The notes beneath the pieces are model-generated. The model did not search any database. It was given only the letters and a program-made list of their open reading frames with translations, and had not been told where the DNA came from. This document shows, piece by piece, positions 43,671 through 63,208 of a stretch of DNA of 64,000 nt. Both the position numbers and the translations under genes were made by a program. Within the stretch, counting starts at the first letter, position 1, and the number at the start of each line of letters is the position of its first letter. Source of the stretch: an uncultured Candidatus Saccharibacteria bacterium. Lineage in GTDB: Bacteria > Patescibacteriota > Minisyncoccia > Phycocordibacterales > PALSA-1337. The stretch covers positions 39,477-103,476 of the forward strand of contig CAZBVQ010000001.1 of the NCBI GenBank assembly GCA_964495685.1, given 5' to 3'.

Positions 43671-43680
43671 TATAAAAAGA

Positions 43681-43900: not shown

Positions 43901-44030
43901 AACCAAATCAATGTACTTTATTACTATACAAGTATAGCATGCCCATAAAATTTGTCAAGCAAAATTTCATTTTGTCCAGTATTATATAAATAATATGGCT
44001 CTGTTAGGCCATAAATGATAAGAATTAATA

Positions 44031-45386: not shown

Positions 45387-45535
45387 ACCTCAAGGAATGA
45401 CAGAACCCATCCGATGAGTCTAGGATCCGTCGGAGTTGATAAATTGTAGGTAACTCTCCTCGAGAATTATGCAGAAATGATGAAATATGCTTATACTTAT
45501 AGTATTAATCGTCAAAAATTAATCTTTTTAATAAC

Positions 45536-46648: not shown

Positions 46649-46651
46649 CAA

Positions 46652-47443: not shown

Positions 47444-47611
47444 GCGTTTAGCATACAGGAAACAGTGAAATTTGTCCATCCGAACGGACAGAATTGAATG
47501 AGTGATAAATACGTGCCTATATTTAGCCATTTTCCAAGATACCACATTTACAACGCGACACAAGCATTGCGTAATATACTATAATTTTGGCATTAGTAAT
47601 TAATAAAAATT

Positions 47612-48709
47612 ATGAACAAAAAATTAATTTGGATCATTGTCGGGGTCATAGTGTTAGTTGCAGTAGTCTTGGGCGTCACATTATCTGGTGGCTCCAAGCA
47701 ACCGGCAGAGAGGCAGACTGTTAAGATCGGCCTTGCATTGCCTCTAACAGGAGGTGCTGCGTTCCTTGGGGAATCGGCTAGAAACGCTGCGCAAATGGCG
47801 CTAGCTGACGCTGGTCAGACTAAGTACGATTATTCATTGGACATCGAAGACGATGCTTTCAATCCAGCAAAGACTGCGACTGTTGTAAGCAAATTCGTGA
47901 ACATAGATAAAGTGTCCGCAATTGTCACGTTTGGATCAGCGACAAGTAATGCCGCCGCTCCTATAAACGAAAATGCCGAAGTACCTAGATTTGGACTTGC
48001 TTCAGATCCCACGTCCGCTGTTGGTGATTACAACTTTATTCACTGGACGCCTCCTTTCAAAGAGGGACAGTTATCAGTTGAAGAGATGGTAAAGAGAGGA
48101 TACAAAACGATTTCTATCGTTGATACCAATCACTCTGGGACGCTCGCAGTCACAAAACCGGTTAGGGAAGCATTGGCAAATACAAATATAAAGATATTAT
48201 CGGATGATCTTACCAATGTTGGTGATAAGGATTTCAGAACGATAGTCACGAAAATCAAAGCCTTAAAGCCCGATATCGTTCTCGTGGAAATGTTTTCGCC
48301 TGAGATCGAGATCTTCGCAAAACAAATGAAAGAGCTTGGTGTGAAAACGCCGATGACTAGCGTCGAGACATTCGAATGGAGTAACGATCCGTCGTTATTC
48401 GAAGGAATGTGGTTTATTTCCGACGTTAGGGTTGATCAGAGTTTCTCTGACAAATATAAGGCAAGATTTGGTGATACTCCGAAGCCTGGAGCAACTTATG
48501 TCTACGATCTTGTATCTCTATTCATTCGAACTCAGGAACAATCAAATAGTAAACTGACTCCCACAGAGATGAGGGATGCGATCATAAAGACCGGGTATGA
48601 TGATTCACCAATCTTCGGAAAAATCGCGATTGATAAAGATGGATTCTTCATTACTGAGGCCTCTGTAAAGATGATAAAGGACGGCAAGGCGGTGCTGATT
48701 CCAAACTAA
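47612..48709 (+). CDS. ABC transporter substrate-binding protein, LivJ/Peripla_BP_6 family, paralog 2
   Basis: TM anchor plus VKIGLALPLTGGAAFLGE. 365 aa. Confidence 0.8.
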   Translation: MNKKLIWIIVGVIVLVAVVLGVTLSGGSKQPAERQTVKIGLALPLTGGAAFLGESARNAAQMALADAGQTKYDYSLDIEDDAFNPAKTATVVSKFVNIDKVSAIVTFGSATSNAAAPINENAEVPRFGLASDPTSAVGDYNFIHWTPPFKEGQLSVEEMVKRGYKTISIVDTNHSGTLAVTKPVREALANTNIKILSDDLTNVGDKDFRTIVTKIKALKPDIVLVEMFSPEIEIFAKQMKELGVKTPMTSVETFEWSNDPSLFEGMWFISDVRVDQSFSDKYKARFGDTPKPGATYVYDLVSLFIRTQEQSNSKLTPTEMRDAIIKTGYDDSPIFGKIAIDKDGFFITEASVKMIKDGKAVLIPN

Positions 48710-48726
48710 ATCGTTACTTACTTCAA

Positions 48727-48758
48727 ACAAAAATCGCTCTACAGAGAGCGATTTTTGT
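48727..48758 (+). terminator. intrinsic terminator (AAAAATCGCTCT-ACAG-AGAGCGATTTTTGTTG)
   Basis: Perfect stem with a flanking T-run after SBP paralog 2. Confidence 0.55.
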
Positions 48759-48773
48759 TGTAAACTGATACTC

Positions 48774-49640
48774 GTGGATATACTTCCTCAACTCATTCTG
48801 AATAGCATTATTGCCGGAGCGATCTACGCCATGATCGCTCTTGGTTTTAATCTCATTTATGGCACAGCGAAATTCTTTGACCTTGGCTACGGTGCTCTCA
48901 CAGCTGTTGGGGGATACTCAGTGTTCTACTTCTACAAGACGCTCGGCTTGAATATTTACGTATCGATCATTCTCGGCATGCTCATTGCTGGCATTGTCGG
49001 CTTTCTAGTCTATCGTCTGGTGTACTCGCCGCTTCGAGCCAAGAAATCTTCTGGCATGGTCCTCTTGGTCGCAGCTCTCGGAGTTCTAACTGCCATTCAA
49101 GCTATCATCGCTATTCTTTTCACGAGCCAATTTCAGACCCTTTCACAAAGCGCAGGTTCGGAGAGCGTATTCAATGTATTCGGGGGAGTGATTACGCAAA
49201 CTCAACTGATTACTCTGATTCTCGGTCTCCTCATTATGGTGGGCATAGGTCTTGTTTTCCGTTTCACATTATTCGGTAAGGCCATCAAAGCAATCGGCGA
49301 TGACGAAGAGGTTTCACAGATCGTTGGTATCAATACAAACAAGATAATTGGCTGGGTTTTCTTCATTGGTTCAGCCATTGGAGGACTGGCCGGCATTCTG
49401 ATTGGCTTTGATACGGGCATCGAGCCGACGATGGGGCTATCACTGCTTCTCAAAGGAGTCATCGCTTCGATCATCGGTGGGATCGGTAATGTTTATGGAG
49501 GAGTAATAGGGGCGTTCTTACTCGCATTCATCGAAAACTTCGGGATCTGGCAGATTTCAGGGGAATGGAAGGATGCTATCGCCTTCGCTGTGCTGATTTT
49601 ATTCTTGTTGTTCAGACCACAAGGTATTTTAAGAAGATAA
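48774..49640 (+). CDS. livH: branched-chain amino acid ABC transporter permease, LivH type
   Basis: 288 aa, 8-9 TM helices, BPD_transp_2 family pattern. Confidence 0.8.
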   Translation: MDILPQLILNSIIAGAIYAMIALGFNLIYGTAKFFDLGYGALTAVGGYSVFYFYKTLGLNIYVSIILGMLIAGIVGFLVYRLVYSPLRAKKSSGMVLLVAALGVLTAIQAIIAILFTSQFQTLSQSAGSESVFNVFGGVITQTQLITLILGLLIMVGIGLVFRFTLFGKAIKAIGDDEEVSQIVGINTNKIIGWVFFIGSAIGGLAGILIGFDTGIEPTMGLSLLLKGVIASIIGGIGNVYGGVIGAFLLAFIENFGIWQISGEWKDAIAFAVLILFLLFRPQGILRR

Positions 49641-49641
49641 T

Positions 49642-50508
49642 ATGGAATATTTAATTCACTTAGCAATTCTAATTTCAATCTATGCCATCCTAGGTCTCTC
49701 TTTGAACTTGGTTGTGGGTTTCACTGGATTACTTTCAGTAACACAAGCTGCGTTTTACGGCATTGGCGCATATGTCACAGCGATATTGCTAACAAGCTTG
49801 GGAATGAATTTCTTCCTAGCTTTAATAATTGGAATGGCAATAACTGGTGTTTGCAGTCTTTTGATCGGCTTTGTTCTTTCTAAATTTAAAGATGACTACT
49901 ACGCACTTGGCTCATTCGGCTTTAACGTAATTATTTATAGTATTTTCCTAAATTGGCAATCACTTACACGTGGTCCGCTCGGTATTCCCGGCATTTCAAG
50001 ACCTTCACTATTTGGATTCACTTTCTCTGATAACTTATCTTTTCTAATTTTATCAGTAGTCTTCTTGCTGTTGGTTTTCGGAGTCTGCCATTTCATTGCC
50101 AAGTCTTCATTCGGCCGAGTTTTGAAAGCGATTAGAGAGGATGAAGAAGCGATTTCTGTATTTGGATACCACACACTATGGTACAAGCTTGCGATTTTTG
50201 TGATTGGGGCGATGTTGGCCTCGATTGCAGGATCACTATTTGCTTCATATATAACTTTCATTGACCCATCCAGCTTCAGTCTCACGGAATCAATCTTTAT
50301 TTTGGCCATAATAATTCTCGGTGGTCTTGCTAGTAACAAGGGTTCAGTCTGGGGAGCAGTGTTTCTAATCCTCCTGCCGGAAATTTTACGCTTCGTTGGT
50401 TTTCCAGATGATATTGCAGCGCAAATGAGGCAGGTGGTTTATGGAGTGATACTAATTCTACTTATGCTTTACCGCCCTCAAGGCCTCGTCGGGGAGTACA
50501 GATTGTAA
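49642..50508 (+). CDS. livM: branched-chain amino acid ABC transporter permease, LivM type
   Basis: 288 aa polytopic; immediately follows livH. Confidence 0.8.
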   Translation: MEYLIHLAILISIYAILGLSLNLVVGFTGLLSVTQAAFYGIGAYVTAILLTSLGMNFFLALIIGMAITGVCSLLIGFVLSKFKDDYYALGSFGFNVIIYSIFLNWQSLTRGPLGIPGISRPSLFGFTFSDNLSFLILSVVFLLLVFGVCHFIAKSSFGRVLKAIREDEEAISVFGYHTLWYKLAIFVIGAMLASIAGSLFASYITFIDPSSFSLTESIFILAIIILGGLASNKGSVWGAVFLILLPEILRFVGFPDDIAAQMRQVVYGVILILLMLYRPQGLVGEYRL

Positions 50509-50518
50509 AGTCTGCGGA

Positions 50519-51607
50519 TTAGATTTTGAAGTCTCCGTTTTCATACGTAGCCATCTTCCACTCAGGAACACGGAGACCCATTCCAAGCTCGTCAAAAGCT
50601 ATTGGTCCAGTTGCGCCATCTCCCTTGAACTTCTCGATATTATTTAACCAACGACTCTTGTCTGGGTTATATGTTTCAGCCATGACCAAATATGCATCGT
50701 AACCATAACCTGCAAGCTCGCTTGGGTCAGAATTGAAGCGCTTTTTATATTTGTTTGTAAAATCAGCTGATACTTCAGAGGCTGAATACATGGCAGTACT
50801 GCCGTTCAGTATGCGGTTCATAGAAGAGCCAAGGGTGGTTTGGTAATCTGTGAAGGAAAACTGAAGGTTTAAGTCGAAGTACAAATGAGGCGCATGGTAT
50901 CCGAGCTGGTCCATTCGCGTGAGAATCTGTCCTCCAACTTTTCCATCTACAAACATAACAAGTCCCTGCGAGTTTAGCTCTTTGATTTTCAGGGCTACCG
51001 GATTGAAATCTCGCTCTGTCATCGGCACGCGCACGATGGATACCGTCCCGTTAAATTTCTTTTCAAAATCTGAAAGGAACTTCTCGTAGGCTTTTATCTG
51101 TTGCATCACGACCGTCACAGTCTTAACGCCCTGCGTATTAGCAGAATCACCAAGCATGCCTACTGCGGTCTGATCGGGGAAGATCTGCACAATATTGTCC
51201 TTATCTATTTCACTTTCAGCCCCGAGTTGTAGAACTGGAATATCTTTTTTCTGAACATCCGACTTGATAACGTCGATTGTTGGAGACGAAAGATTTATCA
51301 AAGCGTCAATTTTATCGATAGACACTTCCTTTTGATATGCCGATAATCCTTTCTTAGAATCATAACCGTCATCTTCCGCTATCAGATCCATTTTTGGAGC
51401 AGAAGGATTTTTTGATTCGAATTCTTCTTTTGCAAGGATGGCACCATTCAAGAACCCCTGACCAAGGTTATCATTTCCGACTGTTAATCCAGTTAACGGT
51501 GAAATCAAACCAATACGTACGTTCTGGTGTGAAATCCTATTTTCATAAACGATAAAGATAATAACAAGCGCAATGATTGCTAAAACAGCGTACAATATTT
51601 TTTGCAT
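50519..51607 (-). CDS. ABC transporter substrate-binding protein, LivJ/Peripla_BP_6 family, paralog 3
   Basis: When started at the ATG at 51607: TM anchor MQKILYAVLAIIALVIIFIVY, then VRIGLISPLTGL. The longer upstream reading frame is probably not translated. Confidence 0.7.
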   Translation of the reverse strand: MQKILYAVLAIIALVIIFIVYENRISHQNVRIGLISPLTGLTVGNDNLGQGFLNGAILAKEEFESKNPSAPKMDLIAEDDGYDSKKGLSAYQKEVSIDKIDALINLSSPTIDVIKSDVQKKDIPVLQLGAESEIDKDNIVQIFPDQTAVGMLGDSANTQGVKTVTVVMQQIKAYEKFLSDFEKKFNGTVSIVRVPMTERDFNPVALKIKELNSQGLVMFVDGKVGGQILTRMDQLGYHAPHLYFDLNLQFSFTDYQTTLGSSMNRILNGSTAMYSASEVSADFTNKYKKRFNSDPSELAGYGYDAYLVMAETYNPDKSRWLNNIEKFKGDGATGPIAFDELGMGLRVPEWKMATYENGDFKI

Positions 51608-51757
51608 AATATGATCATAATACTGCGCGGTCACAAATGTGTCAAATAAATGAACAATCCTTGCAATAATATAACCCGACGCTAAGCCAGATTTAAGGTA
51701 ATTTGTACAATTTGTCAGAATTATTGACAAAAGCCCTATCTCTGATATGTTTGTGAC

Positions 51758-52498
51758 ATGGATCAAATCAGTAGCTCTCTGAATAATATTGGGCTTTCGG
51801 ACAAGGAGTCCAAGATATATGTCACACTTCTCAAGCTGGGGGAAGCTACTGTGGCAGAAATTTCCACGGAAGCTGGTATAAAGAGGCCAACAGCTTACAT
51901 AATTCTTGATGAATTGAGGAAAAAGGGGATAGCGCTGAAAATACCTCATCCTAAAAAGATTGTATATCAGGCAAAACCGCCTAACGAGCTTTTTGAACGC
52001 GCTAAGGAAAACTTAAACGAATTTCAGCGATTATTGCCGAAAATTAATGCCATTTCTGTCCAAAAAAAATCTATTAAGACCCTATATTTTGAAGGCTTTC
52101 AGGGTGTAAAAGATGCATTATTTTACAGAATGAACGAATTGAAAGGTGAAACTGTCTCGGGTTTTTGGGCAAAAAACAGTGGCATTGAGAAGGATGTATT
52201 TGGTCTTCTTGATAAATGGGGAAAGCAATATTTGAAAAATAATATAACTATCGCGGGTATAACTCCTGATCACGAATCAATTCGTGATCTACGATTAAAG
52301 TATCCGGAGGAATATAAGAAAATTGTGCCCGTCTCAGAAGCAGAATATTCCTCAGATATTTCCATTGATGTGGTTAAGGATTTTGTGAGGATAATTGATC
52401 CACATAGTTTGAAAGCTATAATCATAGAAAACGATCGTGTTGCGCGTGCATTAAAACAGATATTTACAATTGTTGAGAAGAAATACGGTATCTCATGA
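51758..52498 (+). CDS. TrmB-family transcriptional regulator, paralog 2
   Basis: wHTH: IGLSDKESKIYVTLLKLGEATVAEISTEAGIKRPTAYIILDELRKKGIA. Confidence 0.7.
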   Translation: MDQISSSLNNIGLSDKESKIYVTLLKLGEATVAEISTEAGIKRPTAYIILDELRKKGIALKIPHPKKIVYQAKPPNELFERAKENLNEFQRLLPKINAISVQKKSIKTLYFEGFQGVKDALFYRMNELKGETVSGFWAKNSGIEKDVFGLLDKWGKQYLKNNITIAGITPDHESIRDLRLKYPEEYKKIVPVSEAEYSSDISIDVVKDFVRIIDPHSLKAIIIENDRVARALKQIFTIVEKKYGIS

Positions 52499-52562
52499 GT
52501 ATTTTCAGTACCATTTACTTATAGTTTACTTTGATGCTAGGCTATTTTCGGCTGAAAGGATT

Positions 52563-52796
52563 ATGAATATGAGTGAAACTGATTATAAAGCTCTATATGA
52601 GCAGGAGAAACATCTCCGAGAGGAGGCTGAACGTAAGTTCAACGAATTAAAGGAGCGCGTTAGGCCTTTAATCGAGTCGATCGATAAGATGTCAGAACCG
52701 GCTCGCCGGATCGAGGAAGTGATGCAAGAATTCGCTAAGCTTCAAAAAGCCGAATCCCAGTATCATTCCGGTCCGGAGGATCCGGCCGGTGACTAG
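52563..52796 (+). CDS. small hypothetical coiled-coil protein
   Basis: 77-aa charged helical ORF from the internal ATG. Ends at the shared terminator element. Confidence 0.25.
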   Translation: MNMSETDYKALYEQEKHLREEAERKFNELKERVRPLIESIDKMSEPARRIEEVMQEFAKLQKAESQYHSGPEDPAGD

Positions 52797-52815
52797 GCTC
52801 TGATAAGTAGAATTC

Positions 52816-52850
52816 AAAAGGCTCGGTTCAATCCCGGGCCTTTGTCATTT
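52816..52850. terminator. 35-nt bidirectional terminator element, copy 1 (AAAAGGCTCGGTTCAATCCCGGGCCTTTGTCATTT)
   Basis: 10-bp GC-rich stem with an A-run and a T-run. Overlaps the 3' end of TrmB paralog 3. Identical copy at 55299-55333. Confidence 0.6.
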
Positions 52851-53619
52851 TTGAAATACTAGATAACTGGTGTGCCAAGTCTTTGTTCTTCCACATAAAG
52901 TTAAATATTTCTCGAATGGTCTTTGCCAGATCGGCGTTCTCGATAATCACCATCTGATTGTTTCGGTTAAGAACAAGACGGACAATATTTGAGAAAGTGT
53001 CGATTGAAACAGCTGACGAATATATCGAATATGGAAGAATGTGAGTTATTCGCTTCTGAGACGTATCCGTTTTTCTGAAACTCACAAGAGATGGATGGTC
53101 GGGCACAAAAGCTCTAAGTGTTATGTTGTTATTTGCGGTAAATTCATTATATTCCTCACAAATTTGAAGCAGTTTCGCTGACATATCTTTCGCTTCTGCA
53201 TAAAAACCGACTATTTCCTTTCCAAATGCTTCCTCGATTCGATAATGCAAGGCCTCTTTGAATGCTTTTAAGCCTTCGAAATGCATCACATTCATTTTCT
53301 CAGGCGTTTTTATACTCCCGATGGATTTGAGTGACGGCAGAAGCTTCTTCGCTTCATCCATGCGATGCTCGGCATCCTGAAAAAGTATCTCTGGGGCAAC
53401 TGGTTTGTATATCCGTTTTGAAGCACGAGGAATTCTGTGCGCTGCACCTTTCTCGATGAGCTCGTCCAAGATCACATATGTCGTCGGTTTCTTCAGTCCA
53501 GATTGCTCAGATATGGCATAAGCTGAACCCTTTCCTAGTTTTAGGAGCGCTAAATACACTTGTGCCTGCTTGTCAGTGAATCCTATGTTGGTTAGCCCAG
53601 AAACTAATGTTGTATCCAT
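52828..53619 (-). CDS. TrmB-family transcriptional regulator, paralog 3
   Basis: wHTH: IGFTDKQAQVYLALLKLGKGSAYAISEQSGLKKPTTYVILDELIEKGA. Confidence 0.7.
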   Translation of the reverse strand: MDTTLVSGLTNIGFTDKQAQVYLALLKLGKGSAYAISEQSGLKKPTTYVILDELIEKGAAHRIPRASKRIYKPVAPEILFQDAEHRMDEAKKLLPSLKSIGSIKTPEKMNVMHFEGLKAFKEALHYRIEEAFGKEIVGFYAEAKDMSAKLLQICEEYNEFTANNNITLRAFVPDHPSLVSFRKTDTSQKRITHILPYSIYSSAVSIDTFSNIVRLVLNRNNQMVIIENADLAKTIREIFNFMWKNKDLAHQLSSISKMTKARD

Positions 53620-53820
53620 GCTTGCATACTACGCGGCAGTCCAAATATAGTCAATAATTTTGATGACATTAAATGGACAAAATCATTTGTACATTGAAAA
53701 ACATAGGTATATTAACGAATTTTAATGTTCAAAATTTATAATACAGATTTGCCGTTCGTAAAAAATCAAGTTATGCTTATTACCATTACTTTTTATAGAG
53801 TCCCAAAAGGGATCATTATT

Positions 53821-54909
53821 ATGAATAAAAAATATACATGGGCAATAATCATCGTGGTCATTATTGCAATAATCGGTGTCTACTTGCTTGGCACCAAGAA
53901 TCACACACAGACTAAAGGTTTCAATGTGGGGCTTATTAGCATTCTTTCGGGCGAATATGCCGCTGTCGGCGAAAACTTTAGAAATGGCGCGGTACTCGCG
54001 GAAGAACAATACAACGCCGCCCATCCGGACGCGCCTATCAAAATGACTATTGAAGATGATGGTTTTTCTGGTGGAAAAGCAGTGAGCGCGTACCAGAAAT
54101 TAGTTAACGTCGATAAGATCGATGCTCTCATTAATGTTTCAACCGCTTCAATCGATGCTATATATGATTCTGTGACGAAACTCGGGATTCCTGTCGCTCA
54201 AGGCGGTGAACAAGGCCGTGTGCCCACTGATGATAATGTCTTTGGAATATATCCTGACAGTATCGCTTCAGAAAGAGACTACGGAGTCTATATGCGTAAC
54301 AAAGGAATAACTCAAATGACTTTGGTCTATACGAAAATAGATGCCATGATCCGTTTTGTGGATGCATTTAAGGAAGGATTTCAGGGCAAGACGACTGATA
54401 TCGTCATAGATTCTGCCGAAACTGATTTTCGAACCCATGCTCTTAAGGCCACATCAGGCAATCCGAACGCTATTGGCATATTTATGTTTCCACAACAAGG
54501 TGCTCAGTTCATGAAAGAGTATCTTAGGCTCGCTAAAAACAAGCCGACGATCTTCTTCGATACGAATTTTGTCTCCGGTTATACAGACTATCAGCGAATC
54601 ATGGGAGATCTTACGGTTCTTGATGGCAGTATTGTTGGCGGAATGAAGCTTGAAGATACACAGGCTTTCAAGGATGCTTACAAGGCACGGTATGGCACGG
54701 ATGCCCCATTCTTGTCAGATATTGGTTACGATTCGTTCAATCTTCTCGTGAAGACATATTCACCAGATAAGGCGACGTGGGTTGCTAACATGAAGAATGC
54801 TGATTTTCAGGGGGTTAGTGGTGAAATAAAGTTTGGCCCTACGGGAAATCGATTGCCCGAAACTAAGATGATGATCATTCAGGGAGGGAGGATGGTGGAT
54901 TTGAAGTAA
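53821..54909 (+). CDS. ABC transporter substrate-binding protein, LivJ/Peripla_BP_6 family, paralog 4
   Basis: From the ATG at 53821: TM anchor MNKKYTWAIIIVVIIAIIGVYLL, then FNVGLISILSGEYAAVGE. Confidence 0.75.
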   Translation: MNKKYTWAIIIVVIIAIIGVYLLGTKNHTQTKGFNVGLISILSGEYAAVGENFRNGAVLAEEQYNAAHPDAPIKMTIEDDGFSGGKAVSAYQKLVNVDKIDALINVSTASIDAIYDSVTKLGIPVAQGGEQGRVPTDDNVFGIYPDSIASERDYGVYMRNKGITQMTLVYTKIDAMIRFVDAFKEGFQGKTTDIVIDSAETDFRTHALKATSGNPNAIGIFMFPQQGAQFMKEYLRLAKNKPTIFFDTNFVSGYTDYQRIMGDLTVLDGSIVGGMKLEDTQAFKDAYKARYGTDAPFLSDIGYDSFNLLVKTYSPDKATWVANMKNADFQGVSGEIKFGPTGNRLPETKMMIIQGGRMVDLK

Positions 54910-54972
54910 TCAAATTACGACACAACTACTTGACTTTAGCAAGTAGAGCTGCTATACTACTGGCAGCTCTTT

Positions 54973-55296
54973 ATGAATACAACCATGCTCCTTTGGCTCA
55001 TTGTAGCCGTTCTTATCATGTGGGGTGGCCGCTGGGTCTGGATCGCTTTCAGACTTTGGTGGATTACGTCCAAAGGCGGAGAAATGCAGTATAGGTTCAA
55101 GCTGACGCGGATTCACTATGTGATCGCGTTTCAGTCTTGGCTCTATATCAGGCGTCTCCGATTTGGTTCCTTCTGCCACAAGATTCGACTGTGGTGGTGG
55201 GAGTACTGGATCACTCGTGGATTCAAGGTGAAATACCCCTCGTACAATCCGCCAGCCAGTCCGCACGCCAAGCACCTCGAGAAGGATATTCGCTAA
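54973..55296 (+). CDS. possible small Trp-rich membrane protein (GC-rich ORF)
   Basis: One clear TM helix. Conflicts with the antisense ORF 54952..55314; local GC content is higher than the flanks. Confidence 0.2.
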   Translation: MNTTMLLWLIVAVLIMWGGRWVWIAFRLWWITSKGGEMQYRFKLTRIHYVIAFQSWLYIRRLRFGSFCHKIRLWWWEYWITRGFKVKYPSYNPPASPHAKHLEKDIR

Positions 55297-55298
55297 CA

Positions 55299-55333
55299 AA
55301 AAGGCTCGGTTCAATCCCGGGCCTTTGTCATTT
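55299..55333. terminator. 35-nt bidirectional terminator element, copy 2
   Basis: Identical to 52816-52850. Overlaps the 3' end of TrmB paralog 4 in a different reading frame. Confidence 0.6.
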
Positions 55334-56164
55334 CTTGAGATTTACTTTTTCAATCAGATTTCTCATCATAAGGTTGTGGTCGATCTTTTTGCTTCCTTGC
55401 TTTACGTATTCAAACATCTCGCGTAAGAGATCAGTCGTTCGTTTGTTTGTAATCTCTATTGCAATCTTCTCGTACCAGTTAATGATCATGCTTGTTTTCT
55501 TGAAGATCCAAATTTCCGCACTCATGTCGAAGCGATTATCAGGAAAAACAGAATAGTCTGACATTCTACCCTCGAGACTTTTGACCTGTTCGAGGTGATT
55601 CTTCGGATCCGTGATTATTTCCTTGTAGTAGGAATCATAGGCTCCTTCGTTCAATATTCCATCAATGATTATCTTGTTTTTGATCACCGCCTGGTTAAAT
55701 TCAATGAGTTGTTTCTTGGTGGTCACGCGGAGCAGTTCATTAAATGATTCGTGGTGTTGGATTGCTTTTACACGATCTCCCCTTACCTCTGTTGCAATGC
55801 GACTGAAAGCGGGGATGATTTCTTTTGGCCCCACATGGATGATGAACTCATCCTCTTTGGATGTTTTTACGCGAACACCTTTTCTTTCAAGATTTTCGAG
55901 TTGTAGGCGGTCGATTATTCTTTGCAGATTCTTTGAGAGTTCCGTTGTGGATATAGCTCTGTATATAAAGCGCTTTCCAACTCGTTCTTGTTGCACAAGT
56001 CCACGTTTAACAAGATTCTTAAGATTATAGGAAACACTTGTCCTTAAAATCTTTGAATCAGCCGCTATATTCTGAAGACTCTTAGGTGATTCAAGCGTAA
56101 AAAGGATCGTTTTTTCAATGGGGCTTAACCCTAAGAGGCTGGCCGAATTAAGGCTCAAATTCAT
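55328..56164 (-). CDS. TrmB-family transcriptional regulator, paralog 4
   Basis: wHTH: LGLSPIEKTILFTLESPKSLQNIAADSKILRTSVSYNLKNLVKRGLV. Confidence 0.65.
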   Translation of the reverse strand: MNLSLNSASLLGLSPIEKTILFTLESPKSLQNIAADSKILRTSVSYNLKNLVKRGLVQQERVGKRFIYRAISTTELSKNLQRIIDRLQLENLERKGVRVKTSKEDEFIIHVGPKEIIPAFSRIATEVRGDRVKAIQHHESFNELLRVTTKKQLIEFNQAVIKNKIIIDGILNEGAYDSYYKEIITDPKNHLEQVKSLEGRMSDYSVFPDNRFDMSAEIWIFKKTSMIINWYEKIAIEITNKRTTDLLREMFEYVKQGSKKIDHNLMMRNLIEKVNLKK

Positions 56165-56316
56165 GCATCAAGTATAAATTGGACAAAAAATTTGTCAATT
56201 AGTTTTGTATTTTACGTTGTGAATCAAAGGCAAATAGGGAACACACTATTTTTCTATGCACTCTGTTGACATATTGATATAATGCATGGGTAATTATTAT
56301 TAATTTTATATTTACC

Positions 56317-57423
56317 ATGAATAAGAAAACAATATGGCTCATAGGAAGCGCAATTGTCATTATCGTCGCGATCGTGCTAGTACGCGGTTTTAGCGGAAAT
56401 GATTCAAGTTCCATTAAATTGGGACTCATGCTGCCTTTAACTGGCGACTACGCTGCAGCTGGCCAAAATATGCAAAAAGGCATGACTGTAGCTCTTGAAC
56501 AGTATGAAAAGGATCATCCGAATGTGCATGTCACCACAGTCGTCGAGGATGATGCATATGATGCTACAAAGGGTGTAACTGCTTATAAAAAGTTAGTCGA
56601 TCTGGACAAAGTCGATGCAATTCTTATGTTATCGACACCGGTCATTGATGCAATCCATGAAGACGTCGTGAAAAGGGGCATTCCGGTCATTCAGCTCGGC
56701 GTTCAAACAGTCGGTGTTGGGGATGATAATATCATCCAGTTCAGTCCGGCGGCTGACGCGCCAATTGGATTTCTAGCGAAGTATTTGGCGAACTCATCAG
56801 GATTTTATTCCAAGAAAGTGGCAGTGATCTACGATAATTCCGCAGCGCAATTGAGCTTCTACAAGATCTTCGAGCAGAATTATACACACGAATTCACGCC
56901 TCTAATTGTGAACGGAAAGGATGTGTTTCGAAGTTATGCCACCAAGATTGCTAACGAAGGCTACGGTGCCGTCGTGGTTATCGAATCGCCACAGAACGGT
57001 GCGCTGTTCACAAAAGAATTACTAACGGTGGACAAGACCTTGCCGACGATTGCCTACGATGCACAGCTTCAAACTGGATTTGCAGACTATGGCCGCATAC
57101 TTGGTGATACTAACAAGATAAACGGAGCAATATCTATGTGGTTCAAGTCAGGAAAGATGGACGAGCTCACCAAATTGTATCAAGCCAAATACGGAGAAAC
57201 TCCCGGCTTTTTGGTAGACTTCTCGTACGACATGATTAATACAGCATTGGCTACCTATGACAAAGACCAGGCAAAGTGGGTAAGTAACCTCAAGAAGTAT
57301 CAAGATCCAAATGGCGCTTCCGGATCAATATCATTTGATAGCAATGGCGTGCGATTACAGCCCATGGTGATCACGCAAGTGCAGAGTGGAAAGCTTGTAC
57401 CAGTAGATGATGTGAAACTGTAA
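56317..57423 (+). CDS. ABC transporter substrate-binding protein, LivJ/Peripla_BP_6 family, paralog 5
   Basis: TM anchor plus IKLGLMLPLTGDYAAAGQ. Confidence 0.8.
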   Translation: MNKKTIWLIGSAIVIIVAIVLVRGFSGNDSSSIKLGLMLPLTGDYAAAGQNMQKGMTVALEQYEKDHPNVHVTTVVEDDAYDATKGVTAYKKLVDLDKVDAILMLSTPVIDAIHEDVVKRGIPVIQLGVQTVGVGDDNIIQFSPAADAPIGFLAKYLANSSGFYSKKVAVIYDNSAAQLSFYKIFEQNYTHEFTPLIVNGKDVFRSYATKIANEGYGAVVVIESPQNGALFTKELLTVDKTLPTIAYDAQLQTGFADYGRILGDTNKINGAISMWFKSGKMDELTKLYQAKYGETPGFLVDFSYDMINTALATYDKDQAKWVSNLKKYQDPNGASGSISFDSNGVRLQPMVITQVQSGKLVPVDDVKL

Positions 57424-57540
57424 TTCGGATTTGATTCTCAAGAAAATACCGTGCCTTGTGGGTACGGTATTTTCATTGTAAGATGAATATCATAATGGTG
57501 TAACACTGGGTTAAATTAACAATTTCTTAAATATAACTTC

Positions 57541-58614
57541 ATGAATTCATCTACAAAATGGTATTGGATAGTAGGAATATTAGTAGTAATTATTGCCATA
57601 CTCGCAATTGTTATCCCGAAAAATAAAACAACAAGCGAGTCTTCAAATTATGTTGTTGGAGCTATTTTGCCCATGACTGGTCCAGCCGCTCTATGGGGAG
57701 AGACTTTTAAAAATGGTATGGAATTAGCATTAAGAAATCATCCTGAATTGCAGGTTATTTTTCAGGATAGTAAATCGACGGCACAAGATGGCATCTCCGC
57801 ATTTAATGTCTTAAAAGATAGAGATGTTAATCTGATGGTATCTGAATTGTCTCTTGTCTCGGTCCCACTAGCCAAGGTAGCTCTGGATCAAAAGGTTCCA
57901 CTATTTGTTTCTCTTGTGGCTACGAATCATCAGAATATTGTGAATGATTTTACAACAAGATACTACACCGATCCGACCAATTATGCTCTACCTGCATTTA
58001 CAGATCCAATTTCTCCTCTAATAAGCGCAAAGAAAATAGCTTTGCTGTACAGGAATGATGAATTAGGAGTATCAGTCAAAGACAAGATCAATGAACTCAG
58101 TAAGAATAATGATAAACAAATCGTTGCTCAGGAATCGTTTATGCCTAATGAAAAGGACTACAGAACTGTTTTGACGAAAATAAAGAATTCAGATTTACAG
58201 GTGTTCATCTTTGTGGTTGCGAATCCGATTGAAGCTACTGGTATTGTCAAAACAGCGAGCGAATTGGGTTTGAAAATACCCATGATAGAATCGTCTGCAG
58301 TTTTTGCTGACCTCGATACCCGCAAGCAGGTTCAAGGAATACCGTTTTATTCTTCCTCATACGACTTTTCCTTGCCTGATAAGGCGATTGAGTTCAAAAA
58401 GCAATATTCTGAGAAATTTGGTAAGGAGCCAAACTTTAGTTCAGCCTTTGGTTACGATATCGTGAATCTTATTGGAGCATGTGTAAAAAAGAACGTAGAC
58501 ATAAAAGCATGTTTATCAACAGTTAACGAATTTGATGGTGTAGCGGGAGTTGCTACACAAACTGCACCAAGTGATTTTGTCGTAAAACTGCATCTGGAAA
58601 AAGTAAATTTTTGA
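57541..58614 (+). CDS. ABC transporter substrate-binding protein, LivJ/Peripla_BP_6 family, paralog 6 (most divergent)
   Basis: TM anchor plus YVVGAILPMTGPAALWGE. Lower-GC, AT-rich codon usage. Confidence 0.7.
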   Translation: MNSSTKWYWIVGILVVIIAILAIVIPKNKTTSESSNYVVGAILPMTGPAALWGETFKNGMELALRNHPELQVIFQDSKSTAQDGISAFNVLKDRDVNLMVSELSLVSVPLAKVALDQKVPLFVSLVATNHQNIVNDFTTRYYTDPTNYALPAFTDPISPLISAKKIALLYRNDELGVSVKDKINELSKNNDKQIVAQESFMPNEKDYRTVLTKIKNSDLQVFIFVVANPIEATGIVKTASELGLKIPMIESSAVFADLDTRKQVQGIPFYSSSYDFSLPDKAIEFKKQYSEKFGKEPNFSSAFGYDIVNLIGACVKKNVDIKACLSTVNEFDGVAGVATQTAPSDFVVKLHLEKVNF

Positions 58615-58681
58615 ATTCAGTATAAACTCATTACAAAAGCAGCCGCCAGATTTATCTGACGGCTGTTTGCGTAAGATTGCC

Positions 58682-59449
58682 CTAGCTCGAAGTCGTATTG
58701 GGTACGACCCCGATTAGATGAAGTGCTGCCGCTAACTTTACTGATCGGTCGCTATCGCTGCGGCAGCCCATGAGACTAAAGAACTTTTCGGGGTCGATGC
58801 CTTTCTGTGCCAACCCCTTTTCGAGGGGGCGTGTTTTTCTTTCGAAATACGCTTGGTGCATCGCATTCTCTCCCGAGAAACTGATCAGCTTTTCGACGAT
58901 ACGAATGTCCTGATCATTGCCCAGCTGCTTATACAGCTTCTGAAGATGTGACTTCAGCGAAGGGAGTCGTGTCTGTACCATCTTGAGTACATAGTAATTT
59001 GTGATGGCTTCATTCAAGATCTCGCGATCTACGAATCTGCCAACGACATTACCGTTCTCGAGTCTGGCAGCCGCTGTTGCGATGCCAGTCTCGATAATCA
59101 AGATGCCGTTTTTGCCATCGTCAGGTTCCTTGATGACCTTCGTATGAGAGATGGCATGTGTGACTTCGTGAGCGAGTGTCCAGAGTGTTGCCATAAAAGA
59201 GTCACCTGGTTTATGGAACTGTTCCGCGATCAGGGAGATGACGCCTGCGAAACGGGGAGTGAGGAGGATGCAGCGATTCAATGGGTCGTAAGCTGCCTCG
59301 AGCTCGCCTTCCTGTTCTGAGGCAGTCAGTGCATACTCTACCGTCTTTGCACCAATGGAATGAATCCTATGGGCATAGTCGGAGAACGCTTCCTTCACAT
59401 GCAGAATTACTTCCCGCATGAAAGTGCTGATTTTTTCTTGGTCTGTCAT
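58682..59449 (-). CDS. hypothetical HExxH-motif protein (putative zinc metallopeptidase)
   Basis: HEVTH motif inside a predicted helical region. GC content clearly higher than neighbours. Confidence 0.45.
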   Translation of the reverse strand: MTDQEKISTFMREVILHVKEAFSDYAHRIHSIGAKTVEYALTASEQEGELEAAYDPLNRCILLTPRFAGVISLIAEQFHKPGDSFMATLWTLAHEVTHAISHTKVIKEPDDGKNGILIIETGIATAAARLENGNVVGRFVDREILNEAITNYYVLKMVQTRLPSLKSHLQKLYKQLGNDQDIRIVEKLISFSGENAMHQAYFERKTRPLEKGLAQKGIDPEKFFSLMGCRSDSDRSVKLAAALHLIGVVPNTTSS

Positions 59450-59556
59450 AAGTCGGTATTTGGTTGATCGAATTTCAAAGTACTACCTATATTATATCAC
59501 AAATCCTTGACAAATACAAGGGTAGATGCTAAAATATGGCTAAAGCACATTGATTT

Positions 59557-60357
59557 ATGAACATTAACGTTTACGCTCACAAATCGGGGCCATTGAGCAG
59601 GGCCTTTTTACAGGTTGTCGGCCTTACCGACCACAAGCTGGTTGAAGTTGCCGATCAAAAGGCGGCTGACGTCATCTTGCTCACGGGGTCGGAAGATCTC
59701 CGCGCCCTCTACAACGACAAACAACTGTTCTGTGTTCTTCAGACGGAGCGGCGTCCGCTCACGGCGAAGCAACCCGAGAACGTTTGCCTGTTGGACACAC
59801 TGAAGCTCATGGAGGGTGACAGTGGTATCCCGAAGCTTCTTGAGATGATCGACAAGCGCATCGCAGATCAGGCCAAGAAGCCGGCGACTGAAGAGGCACT
59901 TCCGACATTTTCGGATCTTGTCAAATTCAAGAGCCACTACTCGGTTTTGGTCATCGACGATACGGAGAGAAATCTCCGAATCGCCGAGGCTGTCCTCAAG
60001 GGACACTCGGTTACGATCGCAAGTGGTCTGCAGGAGGCGATGAAAGCTGTGGGTCAGAAGCATTTCGACGTGGTCCTTACGGACATGGAGATGCGACCGG
60101 ACAAACAGTACTCAGCGCTGAACCTCGATCACTACGGTGTCACTGAAACCGTGCCACTCGGGTTCGCAGTCGTCCTCGAGATGACTGAACGTGGCATGCC
60201 GGTAGCCGTCGTTACAGATGGCAACCATCACGCCGGGTGGGTGTCGGCAATGTTCGATCACATCCAACGAGCCAATGTTAACGGGCAGAAAGTTCTGTTC
60301 TTTAATAACATCGGCAAGCGGTGGGATACGGCGCTCAAGAGCCTGATGGAGCCTTAG
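59557..60357 (+). CDS. receiver (REC) domain protein with unknown N-terminal domain
   Basis: The C-terminal half has a CheY-like pattern: VLVIDD...DVVLTDMEMRP (phospho-acceptor Asp) ...K. GC-rich relative to flanks. Confidence 0.55.
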   Translation: MNINVYAHKSGPLSRAFLQVVGLTDHKLVEVADQKAADVILLTGSEDLRALYNDKQLFCVLQTERRPLTAKQPENVCLLDTLKLMEGDSGIPKLLEMIDKRIADQAKKPATEEALPTFSDLVKFKSHYSVLVIDDTERNLRIAEAVLKGHSVTIASGLQEAMKAVGQKHFDVVLTDMEMRPDKQYSALNLDHYGVTETVPLGFAVVLEMTERGMPVAVVTDGNHHAGWVSAMFDHIQRANVNGQKVLFFNNIGKRWDTALKSLMEP

Positions 60358-60415
60358 CTCCTCAATTTCTTGAGACACGCACGCAGTTTGCTTCGGCTAG
60401 CTGCGTGTTTTTGCT

Positions 60416-61537
60416 TTATATTTGTGAAGCCTTTCCGCTCTGAATGACGAACAATGAGTATCGGGCATTTGTTCGATCATTTTTCTGATCGAAGCTGATG
60501 TTGCCACTTACACCATCGTAGTTGGCTTGAGCGAGGTAGTTTTTTACTCCCGAAGCTGTTTGATTTGTCTTAAGAGCATTAGCTAACAACTGGATGGCAT
60601 CGTATTCGGCTGCACAGATGTTTATCTGAGGGCAATCTGTTCCATATTTCGATTTGTATTCAGCGAGTATCTTATTGAACTCTGGAGTTGCTTGGAATAC
60701 GTAGTCGCCTCCCACAGCACCTTCAAGTAAGGCCGAGTGCTTTGTGAGTAGCGCTGAAGCCTTGAGAATATTGTCATTTATGAACATATGCTTCGGTTTG
60801 AACCCGAGTTGTTCCATTTGGGTAAGAACTGTTTCACCACTCGGCACAGTTTGAACGCTTACAAAAACGACATCGGGATTTGTGGCTTGCAGTTTGGTGA
60901 GTTGAGTTCTGACATCTGTAGCTCCGGAAGCGAATGATTCGCTTGTGACGGTTATATCTGTATTAGCGAGATCTTTTGTGAGAGAGATTTGAAGTCCTTT
61001 TGCATAATCCGTTTCTTCATAGATCACTGCAATCTTTTTGTATCCTTGTGCAATTGCGCGATCAGCCAAAAGTTTCGCCTCTTGTCCGTCTGATGCCCAG
61101 TTTCTGAAGAAGTTGGGTGAAATTGCTGTGAGTTTGTCAGCGCTTGTCACTGTTCCGAGCAAGACTGCATCGTTCTGAGCTAAGTTAGGTGCCATAGCGG
61201 CGACTGTTCCGCTGCATGCAACAGTTGTAAGTACATGGATTCCATCAGTACTGACCAATTTTTGGAAAGCTGATGCGGCTGTCTTTGGATCACATTTATG
61301 ATCTTCAGATACCAGCTCGAGTTTCTTGCCGTTAATTCCGCCTGCAGCATTTATATCGTCGACGGCGATAATAGCAGTATTATGAGCAGGCTCGCCATAG
61401 GAAGCGAGGCCTCCAGTAAGAGGGTACATGCCACCGATCTTGATCGTGTCGCTCTGCTTCGAGAATTGAGCAGCTACTATTACAAGAACTATTACTACGA
61501 TTACTAAAATGGCCCCGAGGGTGTATTTATTTTTCAT
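60416..61537 (-). CDS. ABC transporter substrate-binding protein, LivJ/Peripla_BP_6 family, paralog 7
   Basis: TM anchor plus IKIGGMYPLTGGLASYGE. Confidence 0.8.
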   Translation of the reverse strand: MKNKYTLGAILVIVVIVLVIVAAQFSKQSDTIKIGGMYPLTGGLASYGEPAHNTAIIAVDDINAAGGINGKKLELVSEDHKCDPKTAASAFQKLVSTDGIHVLTTVACSGTVAAMAPNLAQNDAVLLGTVTSADKLTAISPNFFRNWASDGQEAKLLADRAIAQGYKKIAVIYEETDYAKGLQISLTKDLANTDITVTSESFASGATDVRTQLTKLQATNPDVVFVSVQTVPSGETVLTQMEQLGFKPKHMFINDNILKASALLTKHSALLEGAVGGDYVFQATPEFNKILAEYKSKYGTDCPQINICAAEYDAIQLLANALKTNQTASGVKNYLAQANYDGVSGNISFDQKNDRTNARYSLFVIQSGKASQI

Positions 61538-61676
61538 GTTATTAATGAATTAATTCTATACCATATATTTTACGCTCATTCAATAGTTTGTCAAATGTGT
61601 TGACGAATGTTAAGAAAAGAACTATAATAGCTATATAAATTGGCATAATATTGTTGTCGAGAAATAGGACAAAATC

Positions 61677-62420: not shown

Positions 62421-62439
62421 GCTTTCTTAAACGGCGAAA

Positions 62440-63207: not shown

Positions 63208-63208
63208 T

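What the first reader, a model, noticed from the sequence alone, without database searches (positions are those of the whole stretch)
47444..61676. Recurrent TTTGTCAA/TTGACAAA inverted-repeat motif in every TrmB-binding-protein divergent intergenic region (candidate operator)
The five divergent intergenic regions contain related inverted repeats:
- 47473-47491: TTTGTCCATCCGAACGGACAGAA
- 51711-51731: TTTGTCAGAATTATTGACAAA (perfect 7-bp arms)
- 53674-53693: TGGACAAAATCATTTGTACA
- 56178-56197: TTGGACAAAAAATTTGTCAA
- 61587-61607: TTTGTCAAATGTGTTGACGAA

The 11-mer GGACAAAATCA occurs identically at 53675 and 61667. This is consistent with a shared operator family for the paralogous TrmB regulators, with variable spacing that could give paralog specificity.
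Basis: seen in the sequence. Interest (0 to 1): 0.5.

Follow-up and report, generated by a model that had tools for sequence, protein, structure and literature searches.

The report
Promoter boxes embedded in TrmB operators
The recurring TTGACA-like inverted repeats between five regulator/binding-protein gene pairs of this candidate-phyla-radiation bacterium are mainly the -35 boxes of ordinary promoters, but in four or five cases the box sits in a short palindrome conserved in related genomes, so it is probably also where each TrmB-type regulator represses its own gene.

Summary
The five strings and the repeated 11-mer are in the sequence; two strings sit 1-2 nt from the stated coordinates. 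The proposed TTTGTCAA/TTGACAAA motif is largely the sigma-70 -35 hexamer TTGACA. The best promoter matches in the region fall on it. For TrmB1-4 the -10 box ends exactly 6 nt before the ATG, which implies leaderless mRNAs. The same 8-mer marks unrelated promoters at 34693, 43951 and 59507.

There is more than a promoter, however. In ortholog alignments the best-conserved 17-nt block of IG1, IG3, IG4 and IG5 is an inverted repeat with GTC/GAC cores overlapping the trmB -35:
- TGTC-N9-GACA in IG5 (two copies, 66 bp apart) and IG2.
- TGTC-N10-GACA in IG1.
- GTCA-N10-TGAC in IG3.
- GACAAA-N3-TTTGTC in IG4.

The shared 11-mer is chance-level (P=0.32), although its IG5 copy belongs to the second operator.

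The regulators are TrmBL2-like: a winged helix, a coiled coil and a PLD-like domain, with no sugar-binding domain. Verdict: autoregulatory operators fused to -35 boxes. This is a plausible, untested new member of a known kind, of modest interest.

The parts
47473..47490 (-). IG1 candidate operator, TGTCCATCCGAACGGACA (TGTC-N10-GACA). The arm at 47473-47478 is the -35 (TGGACA on the minus strand) of the trmB1 promoter.
   Evidence: It is the best-conserved 17-nt block in the 4-sequence ortholog alignment (identity 0.91 against a mean of 0.71): TTTGTCCGTTCnnAT[GT]GACA.
47450..47455 (-). The -10 box TATGCT of trmB1, followed by 6 nt and then the ATG at 47443 (leaderless).
   Evidence: The geometry is kept in L009 and L010.
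51712..51730 (+). IG2 candidate operator O1, TTGTCAGAATTATTGACAA (perfect TTGTC-N9-GACAA). The right arm is the -35 (TTGACA, 51724-51729) of trmB2. The -10 box TATGTT is at 51746-51751, followed by 6 nt and the ATG at 51758.
   Evidence: A PWM built only from TrmB5-ortholog sites scores it 15.5, third best in the window. No orthologs could be obtained.
51639..51657 (+). IG2 possible second site, GTGTCAAATAAATGAACAA (TGTC-N9-AACA). It overlaps the -35 (TTGACA on the minus strand, 51640-51645) of the binding-protein gene 50519-51607.
   Evidence: PWM score 15.0. Promoter TTGACA-17-TATTAT, 11 of 12 matches. Not tested by orthologs.
53648..53667 (-). IG3 conserved block, TAGTCAATAATTTTGATGAC (GTCA-N10-TGAC). 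The arm at 53649-53654 is the -35 (TTGACT on the minus strand) of trmB3. The -10 box TAGTAT is at 53626-53631, followed by 6 nt and the ATG at 53619.
Evidence: All 20 nt are identical in the 81% ortholog L012, while the promoter spacer is fully diverged.
53674..53693 (.). Probably not functional.
   Evidence: Both arms are destroyed in L012. Inverted repeats of this quality are expected by chance.
56179..56198 (-). IG4 candidate operator, TTGGACAAAAAATTTGTCAA (GACAAA-N3-TTTGTC, an everted GAC-N9-GTC). 56193-56198 is the -35 (TTGACA on the minus strand) of trmB4, and the rest fills the promoter spacer. The -10 box TATACT is at 56171-56176, followed by 6 nt and the ATG at 56164.
   Evidence: The -35, the whole spacer and the -10 are conserved in L013/L014 (92%) and L015 (81%) with one substitution at the centre.
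61588..61606 (+). IG5 operator O1, TTGTCAAATGTGTTGACGA (TGTC-N9-GACG). The left arm is the -35 of the binding-protein gene 60416-61537 (minus strand TTGACA-16-TAAAAT). The right arm is the -35 of trmB5 (TTGACG-17-TATAAT, 61600-61628).
   Evidence: It is nearly invariant in 7 orthologous regions down to 60% protein identity (identity 0.93 against a mean of 0.68). Both promoters are kept in all 7.
61654..61672 (+). IG5 operator O2, TTGTCGAGAAATAGGACAA (perfect TTGTC-N9-GACAA), in the trmB5 5' leader about 4 nt before the ATG.
   Evidence: It is conserved in 6 of 7 orthologs at 65-66 bp from O1; L007 has N12 spacing. It is not an RNA hairpin.
46652..47443 (-). trmB1
   Evidence: PF01978, 1.8e-11.
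51758..52498 (+). trmB2
   Evidence: PF01978, 2.1e-16.
52828..53619 (-). trmB3
   Evidence: PF01978, 6.6e-16.
55328..56164 (-). trmB4, the most divergent paralog.
   Evidence: PF01978, 5.9e-07.
61677..62420 (+). trmB5, followed by livG/livF-like ATPase genes at 62440-63928.
   Evidence: PF01978, 1.9e-17. Structure model with pLDDT 92; top structural matches are TrmBL2 and TrmB.

Best explanation

For trmB1-4 the -10 box ends 6 nt before the ATG. Transcription should therefore start at the start codon, giving leaderless mRNAs. trmB5 has a leader of about 42 nt.

Around the -35 of every trmB promoter lies a short inverted repeat with GTC/GAC cores:
- TGTC-N9-GACA for TrmB5 and TrmB2.
- TGTC-N10-GACA for TrmB1.
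- GTCA-N10-TGAC for TrmB3.
- GACAAA-N3-TTTGTC for TrmB4.

The most likely mechanism is that a dimer of the adjacent TrmBL2-like regulator binds this palindrome, blocks sigma-factor contact with the -35 box and so represses its own gene. In IG5, and probably IG2, the same or a second site also covers the -35 of the divergent binding-protein promoter, so regulator and binding protein would be co-repressed. In IG5 a second operator 66 bp downstream, at the translation start, would add a roadblock or allow cooperative binding. An unknown ligand, by analogy the transported substrate, would release the repressor.

Shown here: the promoter matches and their fixed geometry; conservation of the palindromes in orthologs; the identity of the protein family. 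Inferred: that the adjacent TrmB is the binding protein, that binding represses, the ligand, and the transcription start sites.
For: Promoters:
- The top promoter matches (11 of 12) in 45-64 kb coincide with the motif.
- In trmB1-4 the -10 box ends exactly 6 nt before the ATG. The same holds in orthologs and in a second TrmB-like subfamily.
- Both back-to-back promoters of IG5 are kept in all 7 orthologous regions.

Evidence for something beyond a promoter:
- In each ortholog alignment the best-conserved 17-nt window is the palindrome on the trmB -35 (alignments).
- In IG1 the conserved left arm and GC-rich interior lie upstream of the -35 and serve no promoter.
- In IG4 the whole promoter spacer is conserved, whereas the spacers in IG3 and IG5 are scrambled.
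- The TrmB5 family has a second copy, O2, at a non-promoter position. O1-O2 spacing is 65-66 bp, and the pair persists in L006 and L008, which have no binding-protein neighbour. The site therefore travels with the regulator gene.
- A PWM from ortholog sites alone ranks IG5 O1, IG2 O1, IG2 site 2 and IG5 O2 among the top 7 loci of the window. In about 170 kb of fetched loci it hits only upstream of TrmB5 orthologs, plus one other site.
- TTGTC-N9-GACAA occurs 3 times against 0.15 expected.
- GTC-N9-12-GAC occurs 5 times in 810 nt against 2 in 6,993 nt.
- An unrelated TrmB paralog, L006:4213, has TGTC-N10-GACA on its own -35.

Protein:
- PF01978 is found in all five regulators.
- The profile matches TrmBL2 over its full length, and TrmB. 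The AlphaFold model has pLDDT 92 and Foldseek's top hits are TrmBL2 and TrmB.
- The DNA-contacting Tyr (Y50 in P. furiosus TrmB, per PMC4158304) is invariant as Y49.
Against: - No binding or expression data exist.
- Every palindrome shares an arm with a -35 box, so part of the conservation is owed to the promoter.
- In IG5 both arms of O1 are -35 boxes of two conserved promoters.
- IG3 rests on a single ortholog, and its AT-rich interior could be an UP element.
- IG2 has no ortholog test.
- IG4's half-site order is everted relative to the others, so a single shared binding mode is not established.
- A control promoter of an unrelated gene (59507) also shows conserved flanks around TTGACAAA.
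- The GTC-N9-12-GAC pattern was defined post hoc.
- Only IG5, and perhaps IG2, places a site on the binding-protein promoter, so control of the binding-protein genes in IG1, IG3 and IG4 is not supported.
Confidence: 0.6

Rival explanations
1. Promoters only. The motif is just the sigma-70 -35 box, with UP-element-like flanks, of densely packed divergent promoters. Palindromy arises because two -35 boxes lie back to back. No regulator binds specifically.
For: - All reader sites except IG3 include a predicted -35.
- Both arms of IG5 O1 are -35 boxes of promoters conserved in 7 orthologs.
- TTGACAAA occurs at unrelated promoters at 34693, 43951-58 and 59507.
- Generic inverted repeats are not enriched.
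- The interior of the IG3 block is AT-rich, like an UP element.
Against: - O2 of the TrmB5 family has the same TGTC-N9-GACA design but abuts the ATG, where no promoter fits.
- The IG1 distal arm and GC-rich interior are conserved without any promoter role.
- The 5 bp between the two -35 boxes of O1 are nearly invariant.
- The IG4 spacer is conserved.
- The PWM is highly specific for these sites.
Confidence: 0.22
2. The palindromes are operators, but for a different, shared regulator such as a global factor, not for the adjacent TrmB paralogs.
For: - The half-site core GTC/GAC is common to all five regions.
- TGTC-N9-GACA-like sites also occur at 40057 (inside the CCA-enzyme gene) and at 23186.
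Against: - Spacing and orientation differ by paralog and are conserved within each ortholog group.
- The TrmB5-type site pair follows the TrmB5 gene into genomic contexts that lack binding-protein genes.
- The hits outside the TrmB regions are within the score range of shuffled sequence.
Confidence: 0.1
3. The site before the trmB5 ATG (O2) acts as an RNA hairpin in the 5' leader that masks the start region, rather than as a DNA operator.
For: UUGUC and GACAA could pair across a 9-nt loop right before the AUG.
Against: - The consensus fold energy is -0.32 kcal/mol, with 4 pairs and no compensatory change.
- The same arms and spacing occur at O1, upstream of the predicted start of the trmB5 transcript.
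Confidence: 0.04
4. Chance similarity in AT-rich DNA. This applies to the reader's IG3 site and to the identical 11-mer.
For: - A shared 11-mer has P=0.32 in shuffles.
- 8-nt inverted repeats with one mismatch occur 1-3 times per shuffled region.
- The IG3 site is not conserved in L012.
Against: This does not hold for the other sites, which are conserved in orthologs and enriched. The 61667 copy of the 11-mer lies inside the conserved O2.
Confidence: 0.04

Closest known systems
Archaeal TrmB/TrmBL1/Tgr operators, for example TrmB at the malE promoter of the trehalose/maltose ABC-transporter operon (TACTN3AGTA), the TGM motif TATCAC-N5-GTGATA, and Halobacterium TACT-N7-8-GAGTA (review PMC4158304).
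   Same: A TrmB-family winged-helix regulator is encoded next to a binding-protein-dependent ABC transporter. A short palindrome overlaps core promoter elements, so binding blocks polymerase recruitment. Autoregulation is reported or proposed for several members. The DNA-contacting Tyr is conserved.
   Different: - This is a bacterial sigma-70 -35/-10 promoter, not a BRE/TATA promoter.
- The half-sites differ (GTC/GAC cores), and none of the archaeal motifs is present.
- The regulators lack the sugar-binding domain.
- There are five paralogs, each paired with a Peripla_BP_6 (Liv-type) binding protein rather than a sugar-binding protein.
- Nothing has been tested experimentally.
TrmBL2 (P. furiosus / T. 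kodakarensis TK0471; PDB 5BOX, 5BPD, 5BPI, 5BQT).
   Same: It is the best sequence-profile and fold match over the full length, and has the same size (about 250-280 aa against 264 aa). The architecture matches: winged helix, long coiled-coil helix and C-terminal domain, without the sugar-binding subdomain.
   Different: TrmBL2 is an abundant chromatin protein that binds coding and intergenic DNA with little specificity (PMC4158304). Here the sites are discrete, paralog-specific palindromes at the regulators' own promoters. Identity is only 16-17%.
Classical bacterial divergent regulator/transporter pairs with palindromic operators over back-to-back promoters, such as TetR-tetA or MarR-type loci (from general knowledge, not tested here).
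   Same: The regulator and its target are transcribed divergently from a short intergenic region. Palindromic operators overlap the promoter boxes, sometimes in two copies, so one repressor controls both genes and itself.
   Different: The protein family differs (TrmB rather than TetR or MarR). The transcripts are leaderless. The host is a candidate-phyla-radiation bacterium with five such modules in tandem.

Membership tests
Sigma-70-type bacterial promoter | A -35 and a -10 hexamer close to TTGACA / TATAAT, separated by 16-18 bp. | tested here: met
   Matches of 9-11 out of 12 at all five trmB genes, and at the binding-protein genes of IG2 and IG5.
Sigma-70-type bacterial promoter | Sensible and reproducible position relative to the gene start. 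| tested here: met
   The -10 box ends exactly 6 nt before the ATG in trmB1-4. The same geometry is seen in orthologs and in another TrmB-like subfamily.
Sigma-70-type bacterial promoter | Hexamers and spacing conserved in orthologous regions. | tested here: met
   IG5: both promoters are kept in 7 of 7 regions. IG1, IG3 and IG4 show the same.
Sigma-70-type bacterial promoter | An experimentally mapped transcription start. | not testable with these tools
   No transcriptome data are available.
TrmB family of transcription regulators (PF01978) | N-terminal TrmB winged-helix domain scoring above the Pfam gathering threshold. | tested here: met
   All five score 29.7-63.3 bits against a cut-off of 25.6.
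TrmB family of transcription regulators (PF01978) | Full-length architecture like solved TrmB or TrmBL2. | tested here: met
   The profile matches 5bpd over residues 1-247 (E 1.8e-9) and 3qph (E 5e-11). Foldseek's top 9 hits are TrmBL2 or TrmB (E 1e-12 to 1e-10), although TM-scores are only 0.39-0.49 because of domain orientation.
TrmB family of transcription regulators (PF01978) | A conserved DNA-contacting tyrosine in the recognition helix (Y50 in P. furiosus TrmB, per PMC4158304). | tested here: met
   Y49 is invariant in the 40-sequence alignment. That it is equivalent to Y50 is inferred from position only.
Sugar-sensing TrmB in the strict sense (TrmB, TrmBL1, Tgr) | A C-terminal sugar-binding subdomain (proteins of about 340 aa). 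| tested here: not met
   The proteins are 246-278 aa. Only PF01978 is detected. The best match is TrmBL2, which lacks that domain (PMC4158304).
Known TrmB operator motifs | TACTN3AGTA, TATCAC-N5-GTGATA or TACT-N7-8-GAGTA in the regulated promoter. | tested here: not met
   None is present in the five intergenic regions.
Autoregulatory palindromic operator overlapping a promoter | An inverted repeat with defined half-sites overlapping -35, -10 or the transcription start of the regulator's own gene. | tested here: met
   One GTC-N9-12-GAC (everted in IG4) lies on each trmB -35.
Autoregulatory palindromic operator overlapping a promoter | Conservation above the flanking sequence in orthologs, including positions the promoter does not need. 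| tested here: met
   Met for IG1, IG3 (one ortholog only), IG4 and IG5. IG2 could not be tested, because no orthologs were found.
Autoregulatory palindromic operator overlapping a promoter | Specific binding by the regulator, and an effect on transcription. | not testable with these tools
   Requires EMSA, DAP-seq or reporter assays.

The most novel reading that the evidence does not exclude
Candidate-phyla-radiation (Paceibacterota) bacteria carry an expanded family of TrmBL2-like regulators that behave as self-contained, shufflable modules. Each module would be a leaderless, autoregulated trmB gene plus a substrate-binding-protein gene. Orthogonality between paralogs would be set by a 'spacing code' on a common GTC/GAC half-site (N9, N10, N12, everted). 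In the TrmB5 type, two operators held 66 bp apart would allow looping or tetramer binding. This would be the first cis-regulatory code worked out for this phylum.
Probability: 0.3. Interest if true: 0.55.

Novelty: new member of a known kind. Interest (0 to 1): 0.35.

Why it matters
Gene regulation in candidate-phyla-radiation bacteria is almost unstudied; no paper in the searchable library links TrmB to this group. These organisms have tiny genomes and depend on scavenging, so the control of their many substrate-binding proteins matters for their lifestyle.

The work yields concrete, testable predictions:
- Sigma-70-type promoters with leaderless regulator mRNAs.
- Exact 17-20-bp candidate operators for five paralogous TrmBL2-like regulators.
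- A conserved two-operator arrangement in the TrmB5 type.

The logic itself, a repressor site laid over a -35 box in a divergent regulator/transporter pair, is textbook. The value is therefore as annotation and as a starting point for DAP-seq or EMSA, not as a new principle.

Tried and rejected
- The search for related loci with the alignment of the five paralogs failed because there was no conserved stretch.
- Genome-contig scans with TrmB5 and TrmB2 found no relatives. A viral-contig scan with TrmB2 found none. IG2 therefore could not be footprinted.
- The metagenome scan gave only one TrmB3 ortholog.
- The contig carrying P0012 had no DNA available.
- Rfam found only four tRNAs in the window and nothing in 44-64 kb.
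- The RNA-hairpin reading of O2 was rejected.
- The known archaeal TrmB motifs are absent.
- The identical 11-mer as evidence of a shared operator was rejected as chance-level.
- Generic inverted-repeat enrichment was rejected.
- The TGTC-N9-GACA-like hits at 23186, 9576 and 40057 were treated as probable chance. Their scores fall within the shuffle range and they lie in or at coding regions.
- The other TrmB-like genes already present in fetched loci were checked as possible orthologs of TrmB1-4. They are only 18-30% identical.

Full report
**Layout of the region.** Positions 45-64 kb of the window hold seven Peripla_BP_6 (Liv-type) substrate-binding-protein genes. There is one pair of permease genes (48774-50508) and one pair of ATPase genes (62440-63928). 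Five genes have the TrmB winged-helix domain PF01978:
- trmB1, 46652-47443 (-)
- trmB2, 51758-52498 (+)
- trmB3, 52828-53619 (-)
- trmB4, 55328-56164 (-)
- trmB5, 61677-62420 (+)

Each trmB gene is divergent from a binding-protein gene across a 139-201-bp, roughly 30% GC intergenic region (IG1-IG5). Homologs carry names from Candidatus Paceibacterota, Parcubacteria and Moranbacteria, so the organism is a candidate-phyla-radiation bacterium.

**Checking the observation.** All five strings and the duplicated 11-mer are present; two strings are offset by 1-2 nt. The exact 8-mer TTTGTCAA/TTGACAAA occurs seven times in the window. Three are in IG2, IG4 and IG5. Three are in other intergenic DNA (34693, 43951, 59507). 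One is in coding sequence.

The five 'inverted repeats' are not one motif. Half-site order and spacing differ among them. Inverted repeats of that quality are no more frequent than in shuffled sequence. A shared 11-mer among five AT-rich regions has P=0.32.

Some signals do exceed chance:
- GACAAA/TTTGTC occurs at 9.9 per kb here against 1.4 per kb in other intergenic DNA.
- Perfect TTGTC-N9-GACAA occurs 3 times against 0.15 expected.

**The motif is first of all a promoter box.**
- (-) TTGACA-16-TAAAAT and (+) TTGACG-17-TATAAT, back to back in IG5.
- (-) TTGACA-16-TATACT in IG4.
- (+) TTGACA-16-TATGTT in IG2.
- (-) TGGACA-17-TATGCT in IG1.

In trmB1, 2, 3 and 4 the -10 hexamer ends exactly 6 nt before the ATG. 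These regulators are therefore predicted to be made from leaderless mRNAs. The geometry recurs in orthologs and in another TrmB-like subfamily, which makes the promoter assignment robust.

TTGACA(AA) also marks predicted promoters of unrelated genes: 34693, in the PNPase/unknown intergenic region; 43958; and 59507, upstream of a receiver-domain gene, where it is conserved in orthologs.

**There is more than a promoter.** I fetched orthologous loci for four paralogs.

*TrmB5* (L001-L008, 95-60% protein identity). The upstream alignment has two footprints in an otherwise scrambled AT-rich region.
- O1, TTGTCAAATATGTCGACA (window 61588-61606), has identity 0.93 against a mean of 0.68.
- O2, TTGTCnAAnnnnnCGACA (window 61654-61672), lies directly before the ATG.
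- Both are TGTC-N9-GACA, 65-66 bp apart.
- Both arms of O1 are -35 boxes of two promoters kept in all seven regions. O2 cannot be a promoter box.
- O2 is not an RNA hairpin: -0.32 kcal/mol and no covariation.
- The O1/O2 pair persists in L006 and L008, where no binding-protein gene is nearby. The sites therefore follow the regulator gene.

*TrmB1* (L009-L011, 90-73%). The only strongly conserved block is TTTGTCCGTTCnnAT[GT]GACA, that is TGTC-N10-GACA. Its proximal arm is the -35 box. Its distal arm and GC-rich interior have no promoter role.

*TrmB4* (L013-L015, 92-81%). The -35, the whole 16-nt spacer and the -10 are conserved, giving GACAAA-N3-TTTGTC.

*TrmB3* (L012, 81%). A 20-nt block, GTCATCAAAATTATTGACTA (GTCA-N10-TGAC, window 53648-53667), is identical while the adjacent promoter spacer is fully diverged.

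*TrmB2.* No orthologs could be retrieved. A weight matrix built only from TrmB5-ortholog sites scores IG2 at 15.5 (51712-51730, on the trmB2 -35) and at 15.0 (51639-51657, on the binding-protein -35). These rank among the top loci of the window. The same kind of matrix gives no hits in about 100 kb of loci without TrmB5 orthologs.

Summarised as GTC-N9-12-GAC, the footprints number 5 in 810 nt, against 2 in 6,993 nt of other intergenic DNA and 0.18 in shuffles (the pattern was defined post hoc). An unrelated paralog in L006 shows TGTC-N10-GACA on its own -35.

**The proteins.** A 40-sequence profile matches TrmBL2 (5BPD) over the full length and TrmB (3QPH) in the N-terminal part. The AlphaFold model (pLDDT 92) shows a winged helix, a 28-residue coiled-coil helix and an alpha/beta C-terminal domain. 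Foldseek's top nine hits are TrmBL2 or TrmB. The tyrosine reported as DNA-contacting in archaeal TrmB proteins (PMC4158304) is invariant.

The proteins lack the sugar-binding subdomain. None of the archaeal operator motifs (TACTN3AGTA, TGM, TACT-N7-8-GAGTA; PMC4158304) is present.

**Mechanism proposed.** Each TrmB dimer binds the palindrome laid over its own -35 box and excludes RNA polymerase, giving negative autoregulation.

In IG5, O1 also covers the -35 of the divergent binding-protein promoter, and O2 sits at the translation start of trmB5. The trmB5 gene is followed after 19 nt by the ATPase genes. TrmB5 may therefore co-control a binding protein, itself and the transporter ATPases. IG2 may work similarly through two sites.

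For IG1, IG3 and IG4 the conserved site lies about 90-110 bp from the binding-protein promoter. Control of those binding-protein genes is not supported by what I found.

The ligand is unknown. By analogy with archaeal TrmB it would be the transported substrate (inference).

I put 0.6 on this composite reading. I put about 0.2 on 'promoters only' and smaller weights on a different regulator, an RNA element or chance.

**Comparison with known systems and novelty.** The arrangement works like archaeal TrmB at the malE promoter, and like classical bacterial divergent repressor/transporter pairs. By sequence and fold the proteins are members of the TrmB family, closest to TrmBL2. They are not sugar-sensing TrmB in the strict sense. 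No paper in the searchable library connects TrmB with the candidate phyla radiation.

I classify this as a new member of a known kind. It gives useful, testable cis-regulatory predictions for a poorly understood phylum, but the regulatory logic is ordinary.

Noticed in passing
window 52816-52850 and 55299-55333: A perfect 35-nt direct repeat, AAAAGGCTCGGTTCAATCCCGGGCCTTTGTCATTT, forms a 10-bp GC-rich hairpin with a tRNA T-arm-like loop (GGTTCAATCC). Each copy lies between convergent genes and overlaps the last codons and stop codon of trmB3 or trmB4 (in different frames). It could be a shared bidirectional terminator or a small mobile or repeat element.
   Followed up: partly
window 40500-45400: A cluster of four tRNA genes (40582-43078) and a large serine recombinase gene (44031-45386, Resolvase plus Recombinase domains) sit where GC content drops from about 0.47-0.51 to about 0.39-0.45. 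The whole TrmB/binding-protein array may lie on an integrated island. The order of these modules differs in related genomes (L001, L007, L013).
   Followed up: no
window 40057-40075: A perfect TTGTC-N9-GACAA (TTGTCCTTTATATCGACAA) lies inside the CCA-adding enzyme/PolyA_pol gene (39027-40520, minus strand). In L006 and on the P0012 contig, the TrmB5 ortholog lies near a PolyA_pol gene and a UPF0102 gene, both of which are also in this window. It may be chance or a remnant.
   Followed up: partly
window 59505-59521; L013 and L002 orthologous regions: The palindrome CCTTGACAAATACAAGG lies over the -35 box of the promoter of a receiver-domain gene (59557-60357) and is conserved in orthologs at 85% and 67% protein identity. 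A block GCACATTGATTT just before the ATG is also conserved. This is possibly another regulator's site.
   Followed up: partly
window 45536-63928: Seven Peripla_BP_6 binding-protein genes accompany only one permease pair (48774-50508) and one ATPase pair (62440-63928). This suggests many binding proteins share one transporter.
   Followed up: no
window 56243-56260 and 56213-56225 (IG4): IG4 has two further blocks conserved in L013 and L015: TATTTTTCTAT[GA]C over the -35 region of the binding-protein promoter, which has an extended -10 (TGATATAAT, 56275-56283), and GTATTTTACGTTG upstream of the trmB4 -35.
   Followed up: no
L001 2846-2916, L004 3815-3886, L013 2578-2643: A second, distant TrmB-like subfamily (about 260 aa, weak PF01978) is also divergent from binding-protein genes. 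It has its own conserved leaderless promoter (TTGC[GA]T-17-TGnTATnnT-6 nt-ATG) without a GTC/GAC palindrome.
   Followed up: partly
window 55328-56164: TrmB4 has no identical sequence in the protein database (best hit 92%). TrmB1 and TrmB5 each have 100% hits from a 700-kb contig. The source assembly may differ here, or the gene may not have been called.
   Followed up: no
L011 8000-17252: Phage-like genes (tail tube, collar, amidase) lie directly next to the TrmB1 ortholog in a related genome.
   Followed up: no
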